Assembly: GCA_942490825.1 (NCBI GenBank)
Contig: CALNYG010000003.1
Span: forward strand, 68,105 to 132,104
DNA from: Candidatus Moraniibacteriota bacterium
GTDB lineage: Bacteria; Patescibacteriota; Minisyncoccia; Moranbacterales; GCA-2747515
Direction: 5' to 3'
DNA length: 64,000 nt
In this document: in pieces, positions 2,768 through 55,182 of the stretch
Numbering within the stretch: the first letter of the stretch is position 1
Layout: the number at the start of each line of letters is the position of its first letter
Program-made: the position numbers and the translations under genes
The notes under the pieces: generated by a model
Told to the model about the DNA's origin: nothing
Seen by the model: the letters and a program-made list of their open reading frames with translations, nothing else
Database searches by the model: none

Positions 2768-4060
2768 GCTCTTTAACATCTTTGGGCAACTAAATTTAAT
2801 AAAATTGTCATCGGAAGAATACAAAATAATAATCTTTTACAAAAACGTTCAACATTTCTAATCCCAAAATGATTCCTTTTAATTCTTTCAAAATGATTAT
2901 GAATTCCTTCAGTATAAGCATTAGTTGTTTTAGATAAATAATAATTTAATATTTCATCAAACCATCTTGTTAATGTATTAGCCAAATCTTTCATATATTT
3001 TGATTCTGAAGTTTTGCAAAGACTGATGACATATTTTAATTGTTTTTGAGCTTCTTTTCTATTACTTTTCCAATATACTTTTCTGAGTTGATGAATTATT
3101 TTCCAACTTTGTTTTAACTTAGGAACTTTAACAAAAACTTTTTCTAATTTATTAAATTCTTCAATTGTTAATTTGTGTGTAGGTATCATCAGTAATTGAT
3201 TTATTTTATAAGATTCATTGTTGATATCTTGGAAAACTTTTTTTGTTCTTTTAATAAAAAGACAGCCCACTGAATTACATGAAAATGATCAATCACAATA
3301 ACCGCATTAGGAAAACATTCTTTAATAATAGCTGGAAAAAAAGAGTCCATATCAATACATACTTCTTTAACTGCTAATCTAAATTTTAAATCAATTTTTA
3401 ATAATTCTTTCAGCAATTCTTTTTGTGATAAATTTGGTAGAACACCTATCACCTCATTATCAATTAAATTAGTAATGTTAAAAACTTGTTTTCTTTTGCT
3501 AACTCCTTTGCCATCCATTCCAATTCTTTGAATAGATTTATCCCAAATTAATGAAGTATTTACCATTTCATCAATCATTCTCAGAGCCGACATAATGCTT
3601 ATCTGTCTAGATATAGCTAGTCCGCTATATGTGGTTTCTCTTAATTCTATGACAGAGTTTTTTTAAAAGCTGTGCTCATTTGTTGCCCTTTTTTAACTTG
3701 AGGTAAAGATTCCCAAAGTTTCTTTTTATGTTTAGAAAAATAAAATCTTCTTTGAGTAATAGCTATAAAAACTTTTTTATTTTCAAACATAGAATGAGCA
3801 ATTATTCTATTTCTTTTTTGATTAATTTTTTTACTTACCTCATTTTTTAATTTAAATGAATTCTTTTGTAAATGACAATGTAAAATTATTTTATCATTTT
3901 TTTCTTCAAATTTATCTAAAATATATCCTTCTAAATTGAATATTTTTTTAATCTCTTTTTTTTGCATTTTTAAAATATTAAATTATTAAAATAACTTAAT
4001 ATTTAAGCATAGAATTTAACAAATTTCAATACTTAGCTTTGCCCAAAGATGTTAAAGAGC
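2768..4060 (-). mobile_element. ISL3-family insertion sequence (decayed)
   Basis: Perfect 22-bp terminal inverted repeats: GCTCTTTAACATCTTTGGGCAA at 2768-2789 and its reverse complement at 4039-4060. The GGCTCTT-type end is typical of ISL3. They enclose transposase fragments. No clean target duplication seen. Confidence 0.8.
2773..3967 (-). pseudogene. ISL3-family transposase split into three reading frames
   Basis: Three consecutive ORFs (3647-3967, 3201-3593, 2773-3270) carry the N-terminal, central (VIVIDHFHVIQW) and C-terminal (TNAYTEGIHNHFERIKRNHFGIRN) ISL3 motifs. At least two frameshifts. Confidence 0.8.
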
Positions 4061-4140: not shown

Positions 4141-5319
4141 TTAATTTTTTACTTTTTTCATGGTCAGGTGTAAAACCATATATCCCACAACCCCTGAAAT
4201 GAGTGAACCGAGAATGATTCCCAGTCGCTCATCAAAGGCCACATGCATGCCGTTTTTATGAAAGGCTAAGCCGCCGACGAAAAGACTCATCGTGAATCCT
4301 ATGCCGCAGAGTATGGAGACTCCGTAGAGATTTTTAAAATTAATATCGCCGGGAAGTTGAGCGATTTTGAGTTTCACAGCCAAAAAGCTGAGCCCGAACA
4401 CACCGAACTGCTTACCGAAAAAGAGTCCGAGAGCGATGCCCGCTGGTACAGGATGGAGTAACTGTTCCAACCCTATACCGTGCAAATTAATACCGGAATT
4501 GGCAAAGGCAAAGATCGGCAGAATAGCGTAGACAATCCAAGGGTGCAATGCACGCTCAAGTTTTTTGAGTGGGGAAATTTCCGGGTTATCCTTGAAAAGC
4601 GGGATGAACATGGCAAGAAGCACACCGGAAATAGTGGCATGAATACCAGATTGTAAGGTGGCATACCACATAACAATACCCACCAGGATATACGGAGTTT
4701 TTCGAATAACGTTCACTTTGTTCATTGCCGCCAGGATCAAGACACAACCCAGGACCACAGCAAGCGGGAGAAAGGCTATCTTGCTGGTATAGAAAAAAGC
4801 GATGATGAGGACTGCGCCCAGATCGTCAAAAATAGCCAGTGAGGTCAGGAAGATTTTTAATTAATTGGGAATCCTTGACCCGAGCAGGGCCAGTACGCCC
4901 AGAGCAAAAGCGATATCAGTAGCCGTGGGAACAGCCCAGCCGCGCATTGCCTGTGCATCCCCTATATTCATGATTATGTATATAAGAGCTGGCAGTAGCA
5001 TTCCGCCGACGGCTCCAACAACAGGGAGCATAATATTACGTGGATCCGAGAGTTCCCCCTCTAAAATCTCACGCTTCAGCTCAAGCCCGACAAGGAAAAA
5101 GAAGACGGCCATCAGTCCGTCATTGATGAAATGATGGAACGACAGGTCAAGACCGATTGCCTTGATGCCAGGAATCCAACCGAAAAGATGAAGATGAAAA
5201 AAATCTTCGTACAGGTGCTGAATTCCCGGTATATTGGCACAGATAACCGCCAGTGTTGCAGATAGCATCAGCAGAAAGATAAAAAAGTCAACTGCAGACA
5301 CAAAAAAATCACCATTCAA
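4141..5319 (-). pseudogene. nhaA: Na+/H+ antiporter NhaA, inactivated (in-frame TAA, no ATG start)
   Basis: ORFs 4861-5319 and 4141-4860 are colinear with NhaA (INDGLMAVFFFLVGLELKRE, ATDIAFALGVLALLGSRIP, AIFDDLGAV, CGIGFTMSLF). They are in the same frame, separated only by TAA at 4861-4863. The 5' end begins at TTG straight after an in-frame stop. Confidence 0.85.
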
Positions 5320-12290: not shown

Positions 12291-12363
12291 AATGGGTTTT
12301 ACAACCCATTCTGTAACGTTTGTGTTTTGAAAAACATGTGGAACTGGTTATAAAACCAGTTCC
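12291..12363 (-). terminator. paired-hairpin element downstream of 12398-13006 (family shared with 34179-34290)
   Basis: GGAACTGGTT-ATAA-AACCAGTTCC at 12340-12363 is followed on the minus strand by ACATGTTTTT. A second hairpin, AATGGGTTTTACAACCCATT, lies at 12291-12310. Confidence 0.6.
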
Positions 12364-32407: not shown

Positions 32408-32452
32408 TTTAAAAACCTTTACAAACCCCAAAAACTAAACTATCATAAAATA

Positions 32453-33344
32453 ATGAATACACAAACTCAACCAACCATCCTAACCCTCGGACCAAAACAT
32501 ACCTTTTCCGATTTGCAAATCCCCCACTTTCAAAAAATTATTTCTAAAAAAGAAAAACCTTACGCAAAAAGTCTCAAAAAAAACTTTTCAGAAATAACAA
32601 AAACACTCAAAGAAAACCTCCACTATCTTGCTGTCGTTCCTTTAGAAAATAGTATTCAGGGAGATGTAACGGAAGTTCTGGATGCAATCTACAGTCAAGA
32701 TTTCAAAATTTTAGCGGGACACTGGCAATCAATTCACCTATCACTTTGCGGAGTTAAAAAAATAAGTGCTGAAAATTATAAAAATATCACTAAAATATTT
32801 TCTCATCCGCAACCACTTTCCCAAGCAAAAAAATATCTTGATGAAAATTTTCCTAACGCTGAGCGAATAGAAATGACTTCAACTGCTGAAGCGATCCGTT
32901 ATGTCGCTGAAGAAAAAAATGAAAACTTTTTAGCCGTCGGTCCAAAAGAATCTGGTGAATTTTACGATTTAGAAATTTTAGCTAAAAACATTGAAAGTTC
33001 AAAAAACAATCAAACTTTTTTTGTTTTGTTGTCCAACTCAAACCGTAGGGGTGTATTGCAATACGCCCCTACAACAAAACGTGCAAAACAAAAACCATGA
33101 AACCGCCCTAGCCTTCACATTCAATTATGACAAACCATCTTCCCTATTTAATGTTTTGCAATTTTTTGCTAAAGAAGAAATTAACTTAACAAAAATCGTT
33201 TCTCGACCAACTGGTGAAAAACGACATGATTATATTTTCTATTTAAACTTCGAAGGAAAGATTAGTGACAATCGAAATCTTTTAGAAAATATAAAATCAG
33301 AAACTAAAGAATTAAAAATCTTAGGTGAATATTTAGTTTTTTAA
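32453..33344 (+). pseudogene. pheA: prephenate dehydratase disrupted by a frame-shifting insertion
   Basis: The PDT domain (ORF 32453-33100, ...NNQTFFVLLSNSN) and the ACT domain (ORF 32991-33344, INLTKIVSRP...YIFYLNFEG) are in different frames. The total span is 892 nt (3n+1). Confidence 0.8.
33045..33072. repeat. 28-nt GC-rich palindrome inside pheA
   Basis: GTAGGGGTGTATTG|CAATACGCCCCTAC forms 14-bp arms with one G-T pair. Removing 33044-33083 (40 nt) joins the two pheA frames. Confidence 0.8.
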
Positions 33345-33354
33345 AAAATGATTT

Positions 33355-33390
33355 AATGCGATGTGAAATTTTTCACATCGCATTTTTTAA
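33355..33390 (+). terminator. rho-independent terminator after pheA
   Basis: AATGCGATGTGAAA-TT-TTTCACATCGCATT followed by TTTT. Confidence 0.9.
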
Positions 33391-34178: not shown

Positions 34179-34290
34179 GGAACGGGTTTTACAACCCGTT
34201 CCACACGTTTCAAAAAAGTTTTAAAATAAACTCAAGAATAAATCTCAATCCGCCACAAAAACATTAGGAACTAGTTTTATAACTAGTTCC
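34179..34290 (-). terminator. paired-hairpin element downstream of 34322-35269 (family shared with 12291-12363)
   Basis: GGAACTAGTT-TTAT-AACTAGTTCC at 34267-34290 is followed on the minus strand by TAATGTTTTT. A second hairpin, GGAACGGG-TTTTACAA-CCCGTTCC, lies at 34179-34202. Confidence 0.6.
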
Positions 34291-37237: not shown

Positions 37238-40200
37238 ATGAAAAAAACAAAAAAAATATCGGCATTTTTATTGATGGGATTTTTAATTTATATTCCCCTA
37301 TTTGCCTTTGGAAATGAAGAAACTGGAGACTCAATGTCTTCTCATTCAAAAAAGATCACTGAAACAATTGGGGTAAAAAAATATAAAGAAAACCAGGTTA
37401 TTGTTAAGTATAAAGAAAATGTAATCCAATTAATTAATACTGAAAGTAAGCGTTTAGCAGAAGCCTCTCAAGCAGAAAAAAATCTTGAATCAGAAGAAGT
37501 TCCTGAATTAAATATAGTACTTTTAAAATCAGCTACAAAAACTACAGAGGAGTTAATATCCGAATTAGAAAATGACCCAAATGTTGAGTATGTGGAGCCT
37601 AATTACATTAAAGAAATAAGTTATACACCCAATGACAGTAATTTTATTGATCAATGGGGATTGAATAATACTGGACAAACTGGAGGAACTTCTGATGCAG
37701 ATATTGATGCTTCTGAGGCTTGGGACTCTGAAAATGATACTAATAAAATTGTTGTTGCGGTTTTAGATACAGGAGTACGTTATACGCATGAAGACTTAGC
37801 AAATAATATGTGGGATGGATCTGCTGGATGTAATGATGAAAATAATAATCCAATTTTTGGAGGATGCCCAAATCACGGTTGGGATTTTGAGAATGGAGAT
37901 AACGATCCAATAGATGATAATGGACATGGAACTTTTATTTCAGGAATTATTGCTGGAGAATCTGGAAATGCAAAAGGAATCAGTGGGATGAGTCGATATA
38001 ATGATATTGAAATAATGGCGATAAAAGTAGGAAGTAGCTCAATAAGTACATTTGATGAAATTCAAGGTATAAATTTTGCAAAAAATAATGGAGCCAATAT
38101 TATCAATGCAAGCTTTGGCGGTATAGGCTATGTTCAGTCTGAAAAAGATGCAATTGATGCTTTTCCAGGAATTTTTATTACATCTGCTGGCAATGGTGGA
38201 ATCGACTTTATTGGAGATGATGTTGATGCTATTGGAGTTGATTATACTCCCTGTGATTACACATCTTCTAATATCATTTGTGTAGCTGCAACTGATAAAA
38301 ATGATAGCTTAACTACTTTTTCAAACTATGGTAATGTTTCTGTTGACTTAGGAGCTCCTGGGTCTAATATTTATAGTTCACATTATTCTAGTGATACCAC
38401 TTATGGATCTGGGTCAGGTACATCTTTTTCTACACCCTATGTTGTTGGTGCTACGGCATTAGCTACAAAGCAATTTCCAACAAAAAATGTTAGTGAAATT
38501 AAAGATTTAATAATTAATTCAGGAGATTCGATTTCTTCATTGTCAGGAAAAACTATCTCTGGGAAAAGATTAAACTTAAATAATTCAATTAGCGACACAA
38601 CGCCTCCAACCCGTTCCAATCCAGCTCCATCAGGAGTTCTAGCCTCAACAACCACAAGTAAAAATATTTCTTTAGTCACTAATGAAAATGCTACTTGTAA
38701 ATATTCAACAAGTTCTGGAGTGAGTTACGATTCAATGTCTAATACTTTTAGCACTACTGGAGGAACCTCTCATTCTACTAACGTTAGTGGTTTGAATGCT
38801 GGAAATAGTTATACTTATTATATTCGATGTAAAGATGGTGATAATAATAAAAATAGCAATGATTTTTTGATCAATTTTAGTATCGATAGTGACACAACCC
38901 CACCGACCCTTTCGAGTCCATCTCCATCAGGAGCACTAGCTTCAACAACTATAAGTAAAAATATTTCTTTAGTCACTAATAAAAATGCTACCTGTAAATA
39001 TTCAACAAGTTCTGGAAAAAGTTATGACTCTATGACAAATACTTTTAGTTCTACTGGTGGCAAATCTCATTCTACTAACGTTAGTGGTTTGAATGCTGGA
39101 AATAGTTATACTTATTATATTCGATGTAAAGATGGTGATAATAATAAAAATAGCAATGATTTTTTGATCAATTTTAGTATCGATAGTGCGACTTCTTTTC
39201 CAGTATATCGCTTCTATTCACAAAGGAACAATTCTCATTTTTACACAATTTCTGAAGGTAGCAAACAAGCGATTATTGATAAATATAATGATGATGTTTG
39301 GAAATATGATGGAGTAGCTTTTTATGCTTATAAAACTAAAGAACCCGGAATGCTACCAGTTTATAGGTTTTATTCTAAGAGCGGACTTGAACATTTCTAC
39401 ACAATTTCTGAAAGTAGCAAACGAGCAATTATTGATAAATATAGTGATGATGTTTGGAAATATGAAGGGGTGGCTTTTTATGCTTATCCAAAAAATCCCA
39501 AAACGGCTTGTCAAAGTGGTGCAACTCCTGTTTATAGATTTTATTCTAAAAATTTAACAGCTCATTATTTTTCTACTTCAGATAGTGAAAAAAGTTATTT
39601 AATTGATAATTATAATAGAGATGATTGGCAATTTGAAGGAACATCTTTTTGTGTTGATGACAAAAATACTTCTGTAGAATTAGATTTTAATTATAAAACG
39701 CTTCCGGTATATCGCTTCTATTCACAAAGGAACAATTCTCATTTCTACACAATTTCTGAAAGTAGCAAACAAGCGATTATTGATAAATATAATGATGATG
39801 TTTGGAAATATGATGGAGTAGCTTTTTATGCTTATAAAACTAAAGAACCCGGAATGCTACCAGTTTATAGGTTTTATTCTAAGAGCGGACTTGAACATTT
39901 CTACACAATTTCTGAAAGTAGCAAACGAGCAATTATTGATAAATATAGTGATGATGTTTGGAAATATGAAGGGGTGGCTTTTTATGCTTATCCAAAAAAT
40001 CCTAAAACGGCTTGTCAAAGTGGTGCAACTCCTGTTTATAGATTTTATTCTAAAAATTTAACAGCTCATTATTTTTCTACTTCAGATAGTGAAAAAAGTT
40101 ATTTAATTGATAATTATAATAGAGATGATTGGCAATTTGAAGGAACATCTTTTTGTGTTGATGACAAAAATACTTCTGTAGAATTAGATTTTAATTATAA

Positions 40201-41185
40201 AAAAAATAGTTCCAATGTTACTATTCCTGTCAGTTCTAAAGTTCCTAATAATATGCCTAATATAACTGTAGGCTTATATGAATATACTGAATCTGAACTT
40301 GAAGATAATTCTTTTCGATTAAAAACAGATCAAAACTATATTATAAAGGACAAAAATGGCAATAAAATCGCTACAATTCCAGCTAACACCACTACTAAAG
40401 TAAAATATTTAAATGATTCTAATCATAATTTGAAGATTTACGATTCTATTCCTGAAATTATAACGCCTGAAGAAATAACATTTGAACCTGCAGACAGTTC
40501 AAATTTGAACGCTATTTTTGAAATTGTCAGGCCTGAAATTACTTATTCCAAATATAGAGGGAAAATTAAATTAAAGTATAGTAACAATTCTGGAGCAAAA
40601 AAAATCTGGGTAATTAATGAACTTCCTCTTGAGCAATATGTTTGGGGCATGGGAGAAATTACTGGAACTGGGCCAATGGAGTATAATAAAGTAATGACAA
40701 CTGCTTATAGAAGCTATGGGCTATGGAAAATACTTCATTCCACTAAATATGCAACTGAAGGCTTTAAGGTTGATGCTACGCCTGGAAATCAACTCTATAA
40801 AGGTTATGAATGGGAAACTAGATATCCGAGAATACGTGAAGCAGCAGAAATGACTAAAGGTAGTATTGTAATGTATAAAAATGATATAGCCATTATTCCC
40901 TACTCTTCTTGGACAGATGGAAGAACTCGAAGTTTTAAGGAACGTTGGGGATCAACTCTCTACCCTTGGTGTCAATCTGTAAATGATCCTTATGGTGACT
41001 ATAATGATAAAAAATATTGGGATAATTCTAGTTATAAAAGCACTTCTGAATTAGAAGCTAGTGGTAATCACATGGTTGGAATCAGTGCTCATGGAGCCTT
41101 AAGTTTAGCTTATGATCATAATTGGAAATGGGATAGAATAATTAAATATTATTTGAAAGATGTGCAAATTGATAAAAGATATTAG
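37238..41185 (+). CDS. secreted multidomain protein: subtilisin-like S8 protease + 2 Ig-like repeats + 6 YRF/HFYT repeats + SpoIID/LytB-like domain
   Basis: Signal peptide present. S8 catalytic triad contexts VAVLDTGV, DDNGHGTFISG, GSGTSFSTPYV. The C-terminus (LEQYVWGMGEI...TTAYRSYG...ATPGNQLYKGY...PYSSWTDGRTRS...QSVNDPYG) resembles SpoIID. Confidence 0.85.
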   Translation: MKKTKKISAFLLMGFLIYIPLFAFGNEETGDSMSSHSKKITETIGVKKYKENQVIVKYKENVIQLINTESKRLAEASQAEKNLESEEVPELNIVLLKSATKTTEELISELENDPNVEYVEPNYIKEISYTPNDSNFIDQWGLNNTGQTGGTSDADIDASEAWDSENDTNKIVVAVLDTGVRYTHEDLANNMWDGSAGCNDENNNPIFGGCPNHGWDFENGDNDPIDDNGHGTFISGIIAGESGNAKGISGMSRYNDIEIMAIKVGSSSISTFDEIQGINFAKNNGANIINASFGGIGYVQSEKDAIDAFPGIFITSAGNGGIDFIGDDVDAIGVDYTPCDYTSSNIICVAATDKNDSLTTFSNYGNVSVDLGAPGSNIYSSHYSSDTTYGSGSGTSFSTPYVVGATALATKQFPTKNVSEIKDLIINSGDSISSLSGKTISGKRLNLNNSISDTTPPTRSNPAPSGVLASTTTSKNISLVTNENATCKYSTSSGVSYDSMSNTFSTTGGTSHSTNVSGLNAGNSYTYYIRCKDGDNNKNSNDFLINFSIDSDTTPPTLSSPSPSGALASTTISKNISLVTNKNATCKYSTSSGKSYDSMTNTFSSTGGKSHSTNVSGLNAGNSYTYYIRCKDGDNNKNSNDFLINFSIDSATSFPVYRFYSQRNNSHFYTISEGSKQAIIDKYNDDVWKYDGVAFYAYKTKEPGMLPVYRFYSKSGLEHFYTISESSKRAIIDKYSDDVWKYEGVAFYAYPKNPKTACQSGATPVYRFYSKNLTAHYFSTSDSEKSYLIDNYNRDDWQFEGTSFCVDDKNTSVELDFNYKTLPVYRFYSQRNNSHFYTISESSKQAIIDKYNDDVWKYDGVAFYAYKTKEPGMLPVYRFYSKSGLEHFYTISESSKRAIIDKYSDDVWKYEGVAFYAYPKNPKTACQSGATPVYRFYSKNLTAHYFSTSDSEKSYLIDNYNRDDWQFEGTSFCVDDKNTSVELDFNYKKNSSNVTIPVSSKVPNNMPNITVGLYEYTESELEDNSFRLKTDQNYIIKDKNGNKIATIPANTTTKVKYLNDSNHNLKIYDSIPEIITPEEITFEPADSSNLNAIFEIVRPEITYSKYRGKIKLKYSNNSGAKKIWVINELPLEQYVWGMGEITGTGPMEYNKVMTTAYRSYGLWKILHSTKYATEGFKVDATPGNQLYKGYEWETRYPRIREAAEMTKGSIVMYKNDIAIIPYSSWTDGRTRSFKERWGSTLYPWCQSVNDPYGDYNDKKYWDNSSYKSTSELEASGNHMVGISAHGALSLAYDHNWKWDRIIKYYLKDVQIDKRY
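38594..39187 (+). repeat. 2 x 297-bp in-frame tandem repeat (99-aa Ig-like module)
   Basis: Units start at 38594 and 38891 (DTTPPT...). The 3' ~125 bp of the two units are identical. Confidence 0.9.
39203..40210 (+). repeat. 2 x 504-bp near-identical in-frame tandem duplication (each unit holds three PVYRFYS...HFYT...W.YEGVAFYA modules)
   Basis: Period 504 bp (39203 versus 39707). Only 3 mismatches were found by eye. It creates identical out-of-frame shadow ORFs at 39324 and 39828. Confidence 0.9.
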
Positions 41186-41190
41186 ATAAG

Positions 41191-41224
41191 ATAAATACCA
41201 CCAGCAAATGCTGGTGGTATTTAT
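41191..41224 (+). terminator. terminator hairpin after the protease gene
   Basis: ATAAATACCACCAGC-AAAT-GCTGGTGGTATTTAT, a 15-bp stem. The U-tract is weak. Confidence 0.7.
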
Positions 41225-41683
41225 CTTAAAGACTTTACCAACTGAAACATTGATTTTAATTTTCTGTTATACTTGTGTTAATTTTATTTATATTTTTATA
41301 AATATTTTGTTTAAACCTATTGTAAAGTAATCATCTCTTAAAGAATTCATCTGTCTTCTTTTTATTTATTTTGAAGATTTTCCTTTAATTATTTAGAACG
41401 ATTAGAATATTAAAAACTTTAGTGAAATTTTTATTATACAGAGATACATGCAATTCTTTTTTAATACAATTATCTACTGAAATACTTTATTCAGTATTTT
41501 GGACAGACCATATGATATTTAGCAACTAAATTATTATAATCTTCTCTGTATTATAATAGAATCATTTTATTTCTTTTTTAAGATGATTCTATTTTGCTAC
41601 GCTTTTAAACGCACGCATCTATTAATACAAATTGTTTTTGATTATAATAAATTAAATTCTTTAAAAATTAATTTTAAAATTAC

Positions 41684-54481: not shown

Positions 54482-55182
54482 CTACTCAAATATAGAAATA
54501 GCAATTTCTCTGTGCATGAATAGCAAGATTGTATTTTCAACCATTTCAATACTTTTAGAATAACAATGAGTTTTCCTATGAAATCTTGCTATATAATGTC
54601 TTAATTGATTATTCATTCCTTCAACTGTAAAAGTCTCTGCTTTTGTTTGAATGTGCTTATCTTTTGGTAAAAATTTTTTATAAACATCCCAATGATCTGA
54701 ACAGTATTTATCGCAATCAATTTTTTTGATTTTGTCCCATAATTTTCTTCCAGTTTTTTCACCTCTTGTCCCTATCACGAAATCAATTATTATTTTACTA
54801 GATCTATCAACTGCAAGCCAAATCCAGGCTTTTTTCTTTTTTTTAACACAAAATGCCACATTTCATCTAATTCCATTTTTTCTATTTTCCAATATTTTAC
54901 TTCTTTTTTACTTTTTAAAATATTCCTTAATTTTTTAGTTGCTTTTTTTACCCATCTTAATATACTAACGTTACTAACTTTCAGTATTCTTCCTATTGAT
55001 CTAAATCCTAGTCCCTCTAAATACATTTCAATTGCTTTTTTCTTAATTTCTTTAGGTTTTCCTCTTTTTGTAAATCTAGAAAAGTTATAGCTACATTCTT
55101 TACATAGATATCTTTGTTTTTTATTTACTTTACCATTTTTAACATAATTCTTATTATTGCAATGAGGGCATTTAATTTTCAT
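54482..55182 (-). CDS. IS1 transposase (InsA zinc-finger/HTH frame plus InsB' DDE frame, joined by a -1 frameshift)
   Basis: InsA: CPHCNN...CKEC. The LDEMWHFV motif straddles the frame overlap. InsB frame: WIWLAVDR, SDHWDVY, TVEGMNNQLRHYIARFHRKTHCYSKS. Confidence 0.8.
54830..54844 (-). promoter_or_regulatory. probable programmed -1 ribosomal frameshift site of IS1
   Basis: The minus strand reads TTAAAAAAAAGAAAAAAGCC (A8-G-A6) inside the insA/insB overlap. The insB frame is -1 relative to insA. Confidence 0.6.

What the first reader, a model, noticed from the sequence alone, without database searches (positions are those of the whole stretch)
33038..33089. pheA is broken by a 40-nt insertion carrying a GC-rich perfect-arm palindrome; exact removal restores the frame
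Seen in sequence: the PDT catalytic part and the ACT part of prephenate dehydratase are in frames +0 and +1, overlapping at 32991-33100.

The overlap contains GTAGGGGTGTATTGCAATACGCCCCTAC (33045-33072). This has 14-bp arms, and its G+C richness is wholly atypical for this genome.

Deleting 33044-33083 (40 nt, 3n+1) yields ...SNSN-QNKNHETALAFTF..., a normal-looking linker between the NxT(R/F)F segment and the ACT domain. CAAAC/CAAAAC direct repeats flank the segment.

Inference: a miniature palindromic element (REP/MITE-like, possibly the same general class as the other GC-rich hairpins here) has inserted into a coding sequence. Either pheA is a pseudogene or expression needs a +1 shift. If the protein were read through, it would simply gain ~13 residues in an interdomain linker.
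Basis: partly seen in the sequence, partly recalled or inferred. Interest (0 to 1): 0.6.

Follow-up and report, generated by a model that had tools for sequence, protein, structure and literature searches.

The report
REP palindrome splits pheA gene
A 28-base copy of a known kind of tiny mobile DNA hairpin (a "double-foot" REP element) sits in the linker between the two domains of a prephenate dehydratase gene and knocks the second domain out of frame, which is an ordinary gene-disruption event.

Summary
pheA is split into a PDT reading frame (32453-33100) and an ACT reading frame (+1, ending 33344), and a strong G+C-rich hairpin lies at the break.

The inserted unit is 28 nt (33045-33072), not 40 nt. 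It has 13 Watson-Crick pairs and one T:G pair. The flanking CAAAC repeats are not target duplications.

The same 28-mer, GTAGGGGCGTATTGCAATACGCCCCTAC, occurs with unrelated flanks in at least 120 genome stretches from many phyla. It is often found inside RAYT/TnpA-REP transposase genes. This makes it a "double-foot" GTAG REP of the published subclass 2.4 type.

Removing exactly these 28 nt, or only C33044, restores one open frame. Every intact relative has a variable, insertion-tolerant linker at this site. The closest relative carries a different 28-nt palindrome there, in frame.

The most likely reading is a recent REP insertion or replacement. It leaves a 215-aa PDT-only product and an untranslated but still intact ACT segment. 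An assembly error is unlikely but not excluded. Nothing supports frameshifting or ribosome hopping.

This is a new member of a known kind, of modest interest.

The parts
32453..33043 (+). pheA PDT catalytic part in frame 0, from the ATG to the last codon (AAC, Asn197) before the break
   Evidence: Pfam PDT covers residues 9-196, profile positions 1-179 of 181, E 2.7e-43. It is 81% identical to the closest homolog, with dN/dS about 0.14.
33044..33044 (+). Junction base C. Under a clean 28-nt insertion it is the first base of the split codon C|AA (Gln). Deleting this base alone also gives an intact 296-aa ORF.
   Evidence: Direct reading of the sequence. The 296-aa version was translated and used as the first row of alignment A3.
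33045..33072 (.). 28-nt 'double-foot' REP, GTAG...CTAC, differing by one substitution from the cross-phylum consensus GTAGGGGCGTATTGCAATACGCCCCTAC
   Evidence: The literature class is described in PMC6006769.
33052..33052 (+). The only difference from the consensus, C to T. It creates a T:G (G:U in mRNA) pair with 33065. It is synonymous in frame 0 (GGC to GGT) and changes Ala to Val in the ACT frame.
   Evidence: In one search, 128 of the 133 listed copies have C at this position and G at its partner, and 4 carry T at this position. The hairpin is more stable on the + strand (-20.1) than on the - strand (-17.1 kcal/mol).
33044..33100 (+). Frame-0 read-through tail RRGVLQYAPTTKRAKQKP, ending at stop TGA 33098-33100
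33073..33344 (+). Rest of the linker (QNVQNKNH) and the ACT regulatory domain in frame +1, ending at stop 33342-33344. It is open and conserved but has no start codon or ribosome-binding site of its own.
   Evidence: The ACT part is 88% identical to L006, with dN/dS about 0.11.
32418..32446 (+). Promoter-like site TTTACA-17-TATCAT, ending 7 nt before the pheA ATG
   Evidence: a consensus match only.
33355..33384 (.). Terminator-like hairpin after the ACT part. The transcript therefore spans both halves, and the REP itself has no T tail.

Best explanation
Positions 33045-33072 are a solitary copy of a 28-nt 'double-foot' GTAG REP. This kind of ssDNA hairpin is handled by HUH/Y1 REP-associated tyrosine transposases (TnpA-REP/RAYT, subclass 2.4 type).

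The copy lies in the insertion-tolerant linker between the PDT and ACT domains of pheA. With its present junctions it adds 3n+1 bases.

Ribosomes starting at 32453 therefore read the hairpin as RRGVLQYAPT and stop at TGA 33098-33100. The product is a 215-aa protein: a complete PDT domain plus an 18-residue tail.

The ACT segment is transcribed but out of frame and has no start codon of its own. It is most likely not made.

The event is recent. The copy has one substitution from the consensus, and the ACT reading frame is still open and conserved.

Shown: the identity, boundaries and family of the element; the frame geometry; the tolerance of the linker.

Inferred: that a RAYT encoded elsewhere moved the element; that the break is real rather than an assembly error; that the truncated enzyme may remain active without feedback control.

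I could not decide whether the 28-nt insertion itself shifted the frame or a small junction indel did so next to an element that had been in frame.
For: 1. The unit is exactly 28 nt. 133 copies in 120 stretches of other genomes share GTAGGGGCGTATTGCAATACGCCCCTAC. Their flanks are unrelated and host G+C ranges from 0.32 to 0.69. There is no target-site duplication.

2. Family. The 28-mer lies inside RAYT-like genes, just after the HuH motif, in 7 loci, with remnants in 6 more. Pfam gives Y1_Tnp. The best NCBIfam hit is REP_Tyr_transpos at 64 bits. Most of the 120 best of more than 7600 homologs carry a REP-encoded segment at that spot, most often RGVLQYAPT. Quentin et al. [quoted passage not shown] Their Table S1 lists a 28-nt sibling, GTAGGGGCGAAAAATTTTTCGCCCCTAC. 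In the fetched loci I found 26 different GTAG...CTAC palindromes, 23 of them 28 nt long and 3 of them 30 nt.

3. Tolerant linker. All four intact clade homologs have 11-38 extra residues at this very site. L006 has an in-frame 28-nt palindrome there. L001 and L004 carry another cross-phylum G+C-rich element there.

4. Frame. Removing the 28 nt gives ...SNSNQQNVQNKNHETALAFTF (from the sequence; del28).

5. Recency. There is one substitution from the consensus. dN/dS for the ACT part is about 0.11.

6. The break is probably real. 29 intact ORFs contain 115 A/T runs of 7 or more with no frame breaks. The window holds other true pseudogenes, including NhaA with an in-frame TAA.

7. A relative, L133, has a PDT-only gene that ends at the same domain boundary.
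Against: - Only one copy of the element, and no RAYT gene, is present in the 64-kb window. The rest of the genome could not be examined.
- Elsewhere, copies inside real genes are in frame as 10 codons, for example in ProRS, TilS, Lgt and a restriction-modification enzyme. A bare 28-nt insertion cannot produce that. The window is the only convincing frame-breaking case among the 93 copies that could be scored.
- Deleting the single base C33044 gives an intact gene in the same phase as L006. A one-base error or mutation therefore explains the break equally well.
- No reads were available.
- Activity of the truncated PDT is inferred from general knowledge of ACT-less PDT domains and was not tested.
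- L133 comes from a contig with 1.5x coverage and could be chimeric.
Confidence: 0.68

Rival explanations
1. The gene is really intact. It carries an in-frame REP-encoded 10-residue insert (…SNSN VGVYCNTPLQ QNVQNKNH ETALAFTF…), as its closest relative and many other genes do. The apparent frameshift is a one-base assembly or consensus error next to a strong hairpin.
For: - Deleting C33044 alone gives a 296-aa ORF, close to the 294 aa of P0001.
- The ACT frame reads the element in the same phase as the L006 palindrome (TETKCILSLQ).
- Nearly all copies inside genes elsewhere are in frame.
- The ACT part shows purifying selection as strong as the PDT part.
Against: - The assembly is not prone to indels. 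There are 81 A/T runs of 7 and 34 of 8 or more inside intact ORFs.
- The junction AACC|GTAG is not a homopolymer.
- The window has other genuine gene defects.
- The 215-aa product is listed from an NCBI source at 99% identity (P0004). This only shows that the deposited sequence is the same.
Confidence: 0.14
2. The hairpin is a maintained, functional feature of this pheA clade's linker rather than a parasite. It could be, for example, an mRNA structure that pauses ribosomes between domains, or a DNA site. The window copy would then be the clade's native element.
For: L006 has a 28-nt palindrome at the same site and in the same phase. It differs from the consensus at 13 positions, yet 11 of 14 pairs are kept and 5 pairs changed on both sides. 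The probability under random decay is about 4e-4.
Against: - The window copy is 27/28 identical to a sequence found mostly between genes in dozens of unrelated phyla.
- dS between the window and L006 is 0.5-0.7. An inherited neutral copy could not stay that pristine.
- L001, L004 and L007 have no such palindrome; two of them carry a different element.
- Many 28-nt variants exist. The L006 palindrome is more simply a different REP variant.
Confidence: 0.08
3. Full-length PheA is made by recoding. Either a +1 frameshift occurs at AAC-C-GUA, or the ribosome hops from AAC 33041-33043 to an in-phase AAC (33078-80, 33087-89 or 33093-95) over the hairpin. The models are T4 gene 60 and the mitochondrial 'byp' elements.
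For: - Matching AAC codons exist in the right phases, giving hops of 37, 46 or 52 nt.
- A stable hairpin starts 2 nt after the putative take-off codon.
- The ACT ORF is intact and conserved.
Against: - AAC matches are trivial in an Asn/Gln-rich, A/C-rich linker.
- The codon after the take-off site is CGT, at 6.0 per 1000 codons the joint second most used Arg codon. It is neither a stop nor a starved codon.
- There is no slippery heptamer and no Shine-Dalgarno-like stimulator.
- L006 needs no recoding.
- No other of the 93 scored copies splits a gene in this way.
Confidence: 0.04

Closest known systems
Double-foot GTAG REP sequences associated with TnpA-REP/RAYT subclass 2.4 (Quentin, Siguier, Chandler, Fichant 2018, PMC6006769)
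   Same: - A 5' GTAG foot and its reverse complement CTAC at the 3' end.
- 28 nt long, with a G+C-rich perfect-centre palindrome.
- Outer bases GTAGGGGCG...CGCCCCTAC identical to a REP listed in their Table S1.
[quoted passage not shown]
   Different: - This inner sequence (TATTGCAATA) is not in their table.
- The window copy is solitary, with no RAYT in the 64 kb.
- It lies in a very A+T-rich genome whose closest named pheA relative is from a Candidatus Moranbacteria bacterium.
- It is out of frame.
GTAG-tagged REPs and Rickettsia palindromic elements found inside protein-coding genes (Di Nocera et al. 2013, PMC3733652)
   Same: A small palindromic repeat inside an ORF that is translated as extra residues in a tolerant region. 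G:T pairs in the stems are taken there as a sign of transcription.
   Different: Those inserts keep the reading frame and the host proteins are thought to function. Here the frame is broken.
Programmed translational bypassing (phage T4 gene 60; 'byp' elements in Magnusiomyces mitochondria). This comparison rests on my own knowledge.
   Same: A short G+C-rich hairpin-forming insert in an A+T-rich coding sequence, with matching codons on either side.
   Different: There is no stop or starved codon after the take-off site, no conservation in relatives, and no second example among the copies examined.
Small dispersed repeats (SDR) of cyanobacteria (Elhai et al. 2008). This comparison rests on my own knowledge; the paper was not read here.
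   Same: Mobile repeats of 21-27 nt that form hairpins, nest in one another and occur inside genes. Many of the 28-mer hits are cyanobacterial.
   Different: I did not test whether this 28-mer is one of the named SDR families.

Membership tests
Double-foot GTAG REP (RAYT/TnpA-REP subclass 2.4 type) | 5' GT[AG]G tetranucleotide at the foot of the hairpin | tested here: met
   GTAG at 33045-33048. Definition from PMC6006769.
Double-foot GTAG REP (RAYT/TnpA-REP subclass 2.4 type) | Reverse-complement foot C[TC]AC at the 3' end | tested here: met
   CTAC at 33069-33072.
Double-foot GTAG REP (RAYT/TnpA-REP subclass 2.4 type) | Short G+C-rich stem-loop (20-40 nt) that is stable as a single strand | tested here: met
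   28 nt with 13 Watson-Crick pairs and 1 G:T pair. RNA -20.1 kcal/mol (z -4.1); DNA -10.1 kcal/mol (z -3.2).
Double-foot GTAG REP (RAYT/TnpA-REP subclass 2.4 type) | The same sequence is physically associated with RAYT genes | tested here: met
   In other genomes the 28-mer lies inside RAYT-like genes in 7 loci, with 6 remnants. The RGVLQYAPT segment is frequent among the 120 best of more than 7600 homologs, several named RayT by a source.
Double-foot GTAG REP (RAYT/TnpA-REP subclass 2.4 type) | Many dispersed copies in the host genome | tested here: inconclusive
   One copy in the 64-kb window. The rest of the genome was not available. Other genomes hold several copies.
Double-foot GTAG REP (RAYT/TnpA-REP subclass 2.4 type) | A cognate RAYT gene in the same genome | tested here: inconclusive
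   tblastn with two RAYT queries found nothing in the window. The whole genome could not be tested.
MITE | 70-300 bp, terminal inverted repeats around an internal segment, and a target-site duplication | tested here: not met
   The unit is 28 nt and is one continuous palindrome. Direct flank repeats are not enriched in 105 copies.
Programmed bypass or +1 frameshift site | A stop or starved codon after the take-off or shift codon | tested here: not met
   The next codon is CGT, used 6.0 times per 1000 codons.
Programmed bypass or +1 frameshift site | Conservation of the recoding arrangement in homologs or in other copies of the element | tested here: not met
   All homologs have a single ORF. 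No other split gene is seen among the 93 scored copies.
Prephenate dehydratase PheA (PDT + ACT) | PDT catalytic domain | tested here: met
   PF00800, 148 bits, residues 9-196.
Prephenate dehydratase PheA (PDT + ACT) | C-terminal ACT domain in the same reading frame | tested here: not met
   The ACT match (22.5 bits, cut-off 27) lies in frame +1.

The most novel reading that the evidence does not exclude
The cell still makes full-length PheA from the split gene. Ribosomes would shift +1 at AAC-C-GUA, or hop over the REP hairpin between matching AAC codons. A REP element would then act as a bacterial counterpart of the mitochondrial 'byp' inserts.

A second, less radical reading that the evidence also leaves open: this exact 28-mer spreads between phyla into small, apparently RAYT-less genomes and so marks recent DNA exchange with neighbouring bacteria.
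Probability: 0.04. Interest if true: 0.8.

Novelty: new member of a known kind. Interest (0 to 1): 0.3.

Why it matters
For this genome, it means pheA should be annotated as disrupted or truncated by a REP element: a PDT-only product with its feedback-sensing ACT domain uncoupled. It should not be annotated as two genes or as an unexplained frameshift.

More generally, it gives a clean, datable example of a 28-nt double-foot REP landing in a coding sequence of a very A+T-rich genome whose closest named pheA relative is a Candidatus Moranbacteria bacterium.

It also shows that one interdomain linker has repeatedly accepted such mini-elements in related species.

The side observation may interest people who work on REP/RAYT biology. 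The identical 28-mer occurs across many phyla, while the RAYT-like genes that carry it (L019, L084, L118, L092, L083, L008, L098) are only about 45-65% identical to one another in protein sequence. I could not establish that this goes beyond what is published.

Tried and rejected
- Other copies in the window. A search with up to 3 mismatches, and a GTAGGGG...CCCCTAC pattern, found none.
- Kinship with the window's other stable hairpins. Rejected: they are terminators or a separate GGAACNNGTT...AACNNGTTCC family.
- Empty or filled site in near-identical strains. A metagenome pattern scan gave 0 hits.
- More clade homologs. The search for related loci on metagenomes found none.
- The exact protein P0004 could not be located on a contig. 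The rest of the source genome therefore stayed out of reach.
- Literature search for the literal sequence gave 0 papers. The sequence is absent from the supplements of PMC3733652, and this exact variant is absent from those of PMC6006769.
- Rfam: no family matches at the site.
- Intrinsic terminator role for the REP. Rejected because there is no T tail.
- Vehicles for spread. Only 5 viral contigs and no plasmid record carry the 28-mer.
- General test for recoding. Deleting the 28 nt from 93 copies elsewhere does not join split genes more often than control deletions. The apparent cases L034, L087 and L057 lie at gene ends.
- Starved-codon idea. Rejected on codon usage.
- Alternative genetic code. 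Reading TGA as sense does not help, because frame 0 meets a second TGA and then TAA within 17 codons (from the sequence).

Full report
**1. What is in the sequence**

The window has 28.9% G+C. ORF 32453-33100 (215 aa) matches Pfam PDT over residues 9-196, covering profile positions 1-179 of 181 (E 2.7e-43). ORF 32991-33344 lies in frame +1 and carries the ACT part (PF01842, 22.5 bits, below the cut-off of 27).

Frame 0 runs ...TCC AAC TCA AAC CGT AGG GGT GTA TTG CAA TAC GCC CCT ACA ACA AAA CGT GCA AAA CAA AAA CCA TGA. The palindrome GTAGGGGTGTATTGCAATACGCCCCTAC occupies 33045-33072. It has 13 Watson-Crick pairs and one T:G pair.

As RNA it folds at -20.1 kcal/mol (z = -4.1). As DNA it folds at -10.1 kcal/mol (z = -3.2). 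Among all 36-nt windows on both strands it ranks about sixth in stability. The hairpins above it lie next to gene ends and look like terminators. The window holds only this one copy.

So does any 3n+1 deletion within the overlap of the two ORFs.

**2. The true unit is 28 nt and it is a widespread element**

I scanned one genome per species for the 22-nt core GGGGYGTATTGCAATACRCCCC.

In 133 copies the conserved block is GTA-core-TAC, that is GTAGGGGCGTATTGCAATACGCCCCTAC. Beyond it the flanks are unrelated, and host G+C ranges from 0.32 to 0.69.

The hosts include:
- cyanobacteria, including isolate genomes
- Planctomycetota, Chloroflexota, Bacteroidota, Omnitrophota, Sumerlaeota, Nitrospirota, Zixibacteria, Atribacterota and Deltaproteobacteria
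- three candidate-phyla-radiation genomes: Kuenenbacteria, Falkowbacteria and Peregrinibacteria

Among 105 copies with enough flank there is no target-site duplication. There is only a weak preference for T on the left and A or G on the right.

The window copy differs from this consensus by a single C-to-T change at 33052. Because 28 = 3n+1, removing exactly 33045-33072 rejoins the split codon C|AA. This gives ...SNSN QQNVQNKNH ETALAFTF... (from the sequence; del28).

**3. What family it belongs to**

In seven of the fetched loci the 28-mer lies inside a gene of about 180-200 codons, directly after an HuH motif (...MPNHIHGI...[C/R/G]RGVLQYAPT...SPSxTIGAIVRGFK...NYYEHIIR). Six more loci carry remnants of such a gene beside the element.

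This protein matches Pfam Y1_Tnp. Its best NCBIfam hit is the REP-associated tyrosine transposase model, at 64 bits, below the equivalog cut-off of 80.

A database search found more than 7600 homologs, several named 'REP element-mobilizing transposase RayT' by a source. Most of the best 120 carry a palindrome-encoded segment at that position. The usual form is RGVLQYAPT or, in the other open phase, VGAYCNTPL. Others carry RGTLQRAPT, RGDRPVAPT, VGATGRSPL and similar.

Quentin et al. 2018 (PMC6006769) describe precisely this. TnpA-REP subclass 2.4 is associated with 'double foot' REPs that carry GT[AG]G at the 5' end and C[TC]AC at the 3' end. [quoted passage not shown] The subclass has a patchy, horizontally spread distribution. 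Their Table S1 lists the 28-nt GTAGGGGCGAAAAATTTTTCGCCCCTAC, which shares all 18 outer bases with the present element.

My own scan of the fetched loci found 26 different GTAG...CTAC palindromes. 23 of them are 28 nt long and 3 are 30 nt.

Di Nocera et al. 2013 (PMC3733652) document GTAG REPs inside genes, translated in frame.

The element is therefore a member of a known class. It is not a MITE: there are no separate terminal repeats and no target-site duplication.

**4. The linker is a permissive, repeatedly used site**

The closest relatives of this PheA are single ORFs: P0001 (78% identity), P0002, P0003 (named Candidatus Moranbacteria bacterium by NCBI) and P0005. All have 11-38 extra residues exactly between ...FFxL(S/I)N.. 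and ETALAFTF.

In L006 (P0001) the extra stretch contains an in-frame 28-nt palindrome, ACAGAGACAAAATGCATTTTATCTCTAC. It is followed by AA as in the window, and it is in the same phase relative to the ACT frame (TETKCILSLQ against VGVYCNTPLQ).

The L006 palindrome differs from the consensus at 13 positions but keeps 11 of 14 pairs. Five pairs have changed on both sides. The probability of this under random A+T-biased decay is about 4e-4. Palindromes this good occur at about 6e-4 of positions in the window.

The simplest reading is that it is another variant of the 28-nt family. The alternative is a copy evolving under a pairing constraint.

In L001 and L004 the same linker carries a different G+C-rich element, TCATTGCGAGGAG...GCAATCTC. 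It is decayed towards A+T in L004 and also occurs in unrelated phyla.

**5. Is the break real, and how old is it?**

The window copy is 27/28 identical to the consensus, whereas dS between the window and L006 is 0.5-0.7. The present copy is therefore much younger than that split. It is either a fresh insertion or a replacement at an already occupied site.

The ACT part is 88% identical to L006 with dN/dS about 0.11. The PDT part has dN/dS about 0.14. The ACT part was therefore under selection for most of the divergence and has acquired no stop since the break. For so recent an event, an intact ACT frame is expected whether or not it is still translated (my inference).

The assembly is not prone to indels. 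29 intact ORFs (41.9 kb) contain 81 A/T runs of 7 and 34 runs of 8 or more, with no frame breaks. The junction is not a homopolymer. The window also has other genuine defects: a G+C-rich NhaA gene with an in-frame TAA, and an ISL3 transposase split at an A7 run.

I therefore favour a real break. Two facts keep the single-base alternative alive:
- Deleting C33044 alone gives an intact 296-aa ORF in the L006 phase.
- Copies inside real genes elsewhere are in frame as 10 codons, in ProRS (L072), TilS (L070), Lgt in a Kuenenbacteria genome (L013), a restriction-modification enzyme (L062) and a TonB-like protein (L012). A bare 28-nt insertion cannot produce that.

Either insertion junctions vary by a base or two and selection keeps the in-frame ones, or the window suffered a small junction indel. 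I could not decide between these.

**6. Consequence**

As it stands, translation yields a complete PDT domain plus the tail RRGVLQYAPTTKRAKQKP. The transcript runs on to the terminator at 33355-33384, and the REP has no T tail. The ACT segment has no plausible start codon of its own. GTG 33081 has no purine-rich stretch upstream (from the sequence).

A relative at 84% identity (L133, a contig at 1.5x coverage) encodes a PDT that stops at ...FFVLIK*, exactly at this boundary, with unrelated sequence following. This suggests that a PDT without ACT can be tolerated in this group. The evidence is weak.

The window itself is dominated by glycosyltransferase and cell-envelope genes. It has only an EPSP-synthase-family protein that could be either MurA or AroA. 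Whether the rest of the phenylalanine pathway is present cannot be judged from this window.

**7. Recoding**

AAC codons in suitable phases exist for a hop of 37, 46 or 52 nt, but such matches are trivial in this Asn/Gln-rich linker. The codon after AAC is CGT, the joint second most used Arg codon at 6.0 per 1000. There is no slippery motif. L006 needs no recoding. Among the 93 copies elsewhere that could be scored, none convincingly splits a gene. The three apparent cases lie at gene ends. I give recoding about 4%.

**8. Verdict**

The element is a new member of a known kind: a double-foot GTAG REP of the RAYT subclass 2.4 type. The outcome is an ordinary, recent gene disruption or truncation.

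The more unusual points are side observations. The 28-mer is identical at the nucleotide level across many phyla. The 28-nt length is nearly constant across sequence variants. Different mini-elements have repeatedly occupied the same linker.

Noticed in passing
window 4141-5319 (- strand); TAA at 4861-4863: A Na+/H+ antiporter NhaA gene is split by an in-frame TAA (…GSRIPN*LKIFLT…). The gene is far more G+C-rich (local windows 0.6-0.7) than the 29% genome, so it looks like a horizontally acquired gene that is now a pseudogene.
   Followed up: partly
window 2773-3593 (- strand): An ISL3-family transposase is split into two overlapping ORFs, with the frame change at an A7 run (GAACAAAAAAAG). This is either a pseudogene or slippage.
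   Followed up: partly
window 54482-55182 (- strand): IS1-type InsA/InsB pair with the usual overlapping-frame arrangement.
   Followed up: no
window 12340-12363, 34179-34202, 34267-34290: Three intergenic hairpins, GGAACNNGTT-NTAWAA-AACNNGTTCC, with compensating changes in the stem (TGG/CCA, GGG/CCC, TAG/CTA). Two are preceded by GTGG. This is a separate REP-like family, unrelated in sequence to the pheA element.
   Followed up: partly
L001 3604-3641 (also L002, L003) and the orthologous stretch of L004: The same pheA linker in Moranbacteria-like relatives holds, in frame, another G+C-rich element, TCATTGCGAGGAG...CGACG(A/T)AGCAATC (translated SLRGGTEQRRSNL). Related copies occur in Peregrinibacteria, Syntrophaceae, Zixibacteria and Terriglobales loci, often with an inverted GATTGCTTC partner nearby. 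In L004 it has decayed towards A+T.
   Followed up: partly
L006 about 823-850 (inside gene 175-1059): An in-frame, A+T-rich 28-nt palindrome, ACAGAGACAAAATGCATTTTATCTCTAC, lies at the site orthologous to the window's REP. Five stem pairs have changed on both sides relative to the consensus.
   Followed up: yes
L133 95-670: A relative at 84% identity encodes a 191-aa PDT that stops exactly at the PDT/ACT boundary and is followed by an unrelated convergent ORF. The contig has 1.5x coverage and may be chimeric.
   Followed up: partly
L008-L127 (genome-contig hits) and proteins P0121-P0240: The 28-mer is identical at the nucleotide level in dozens of genomes from many phyla, while the RAYT-like genes that contain it are only about 45-65% identical in protein. 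Different RAYT homologs carry different palindromes at the same internal site. 23 of the 26 GTAG...CTAC variants found are 28 nt long.
   Followed up: partly
L042, L043, L053, L065 (one Omnitrophota MAG): In this genome the 28-mer sits inside a larger repeated unit that shares the left flank GAACGTCCTGAA...GTTTT. It is therefore nested in, or forms part of, a composite repeat.
   Followed up: no
window 41187-41228: A perfect palindrome with 20-nt arms (TAAGATAAATACCACCAGCA / TGCTGGTGGTATTTATCTTA) lies immediately after the stop of the 1315-aa ORF 37238-41185. It is the most stable hairpin in the window and is probably a terminator.
   Followed up: no
window 32418-32453: The -10-like hexamer of the pheA promoter-like site ends 7 nt before the ATG, and no Shine-Dalgarno sequence is visible. 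The mRNA may be leaderless.
   Followed up: no
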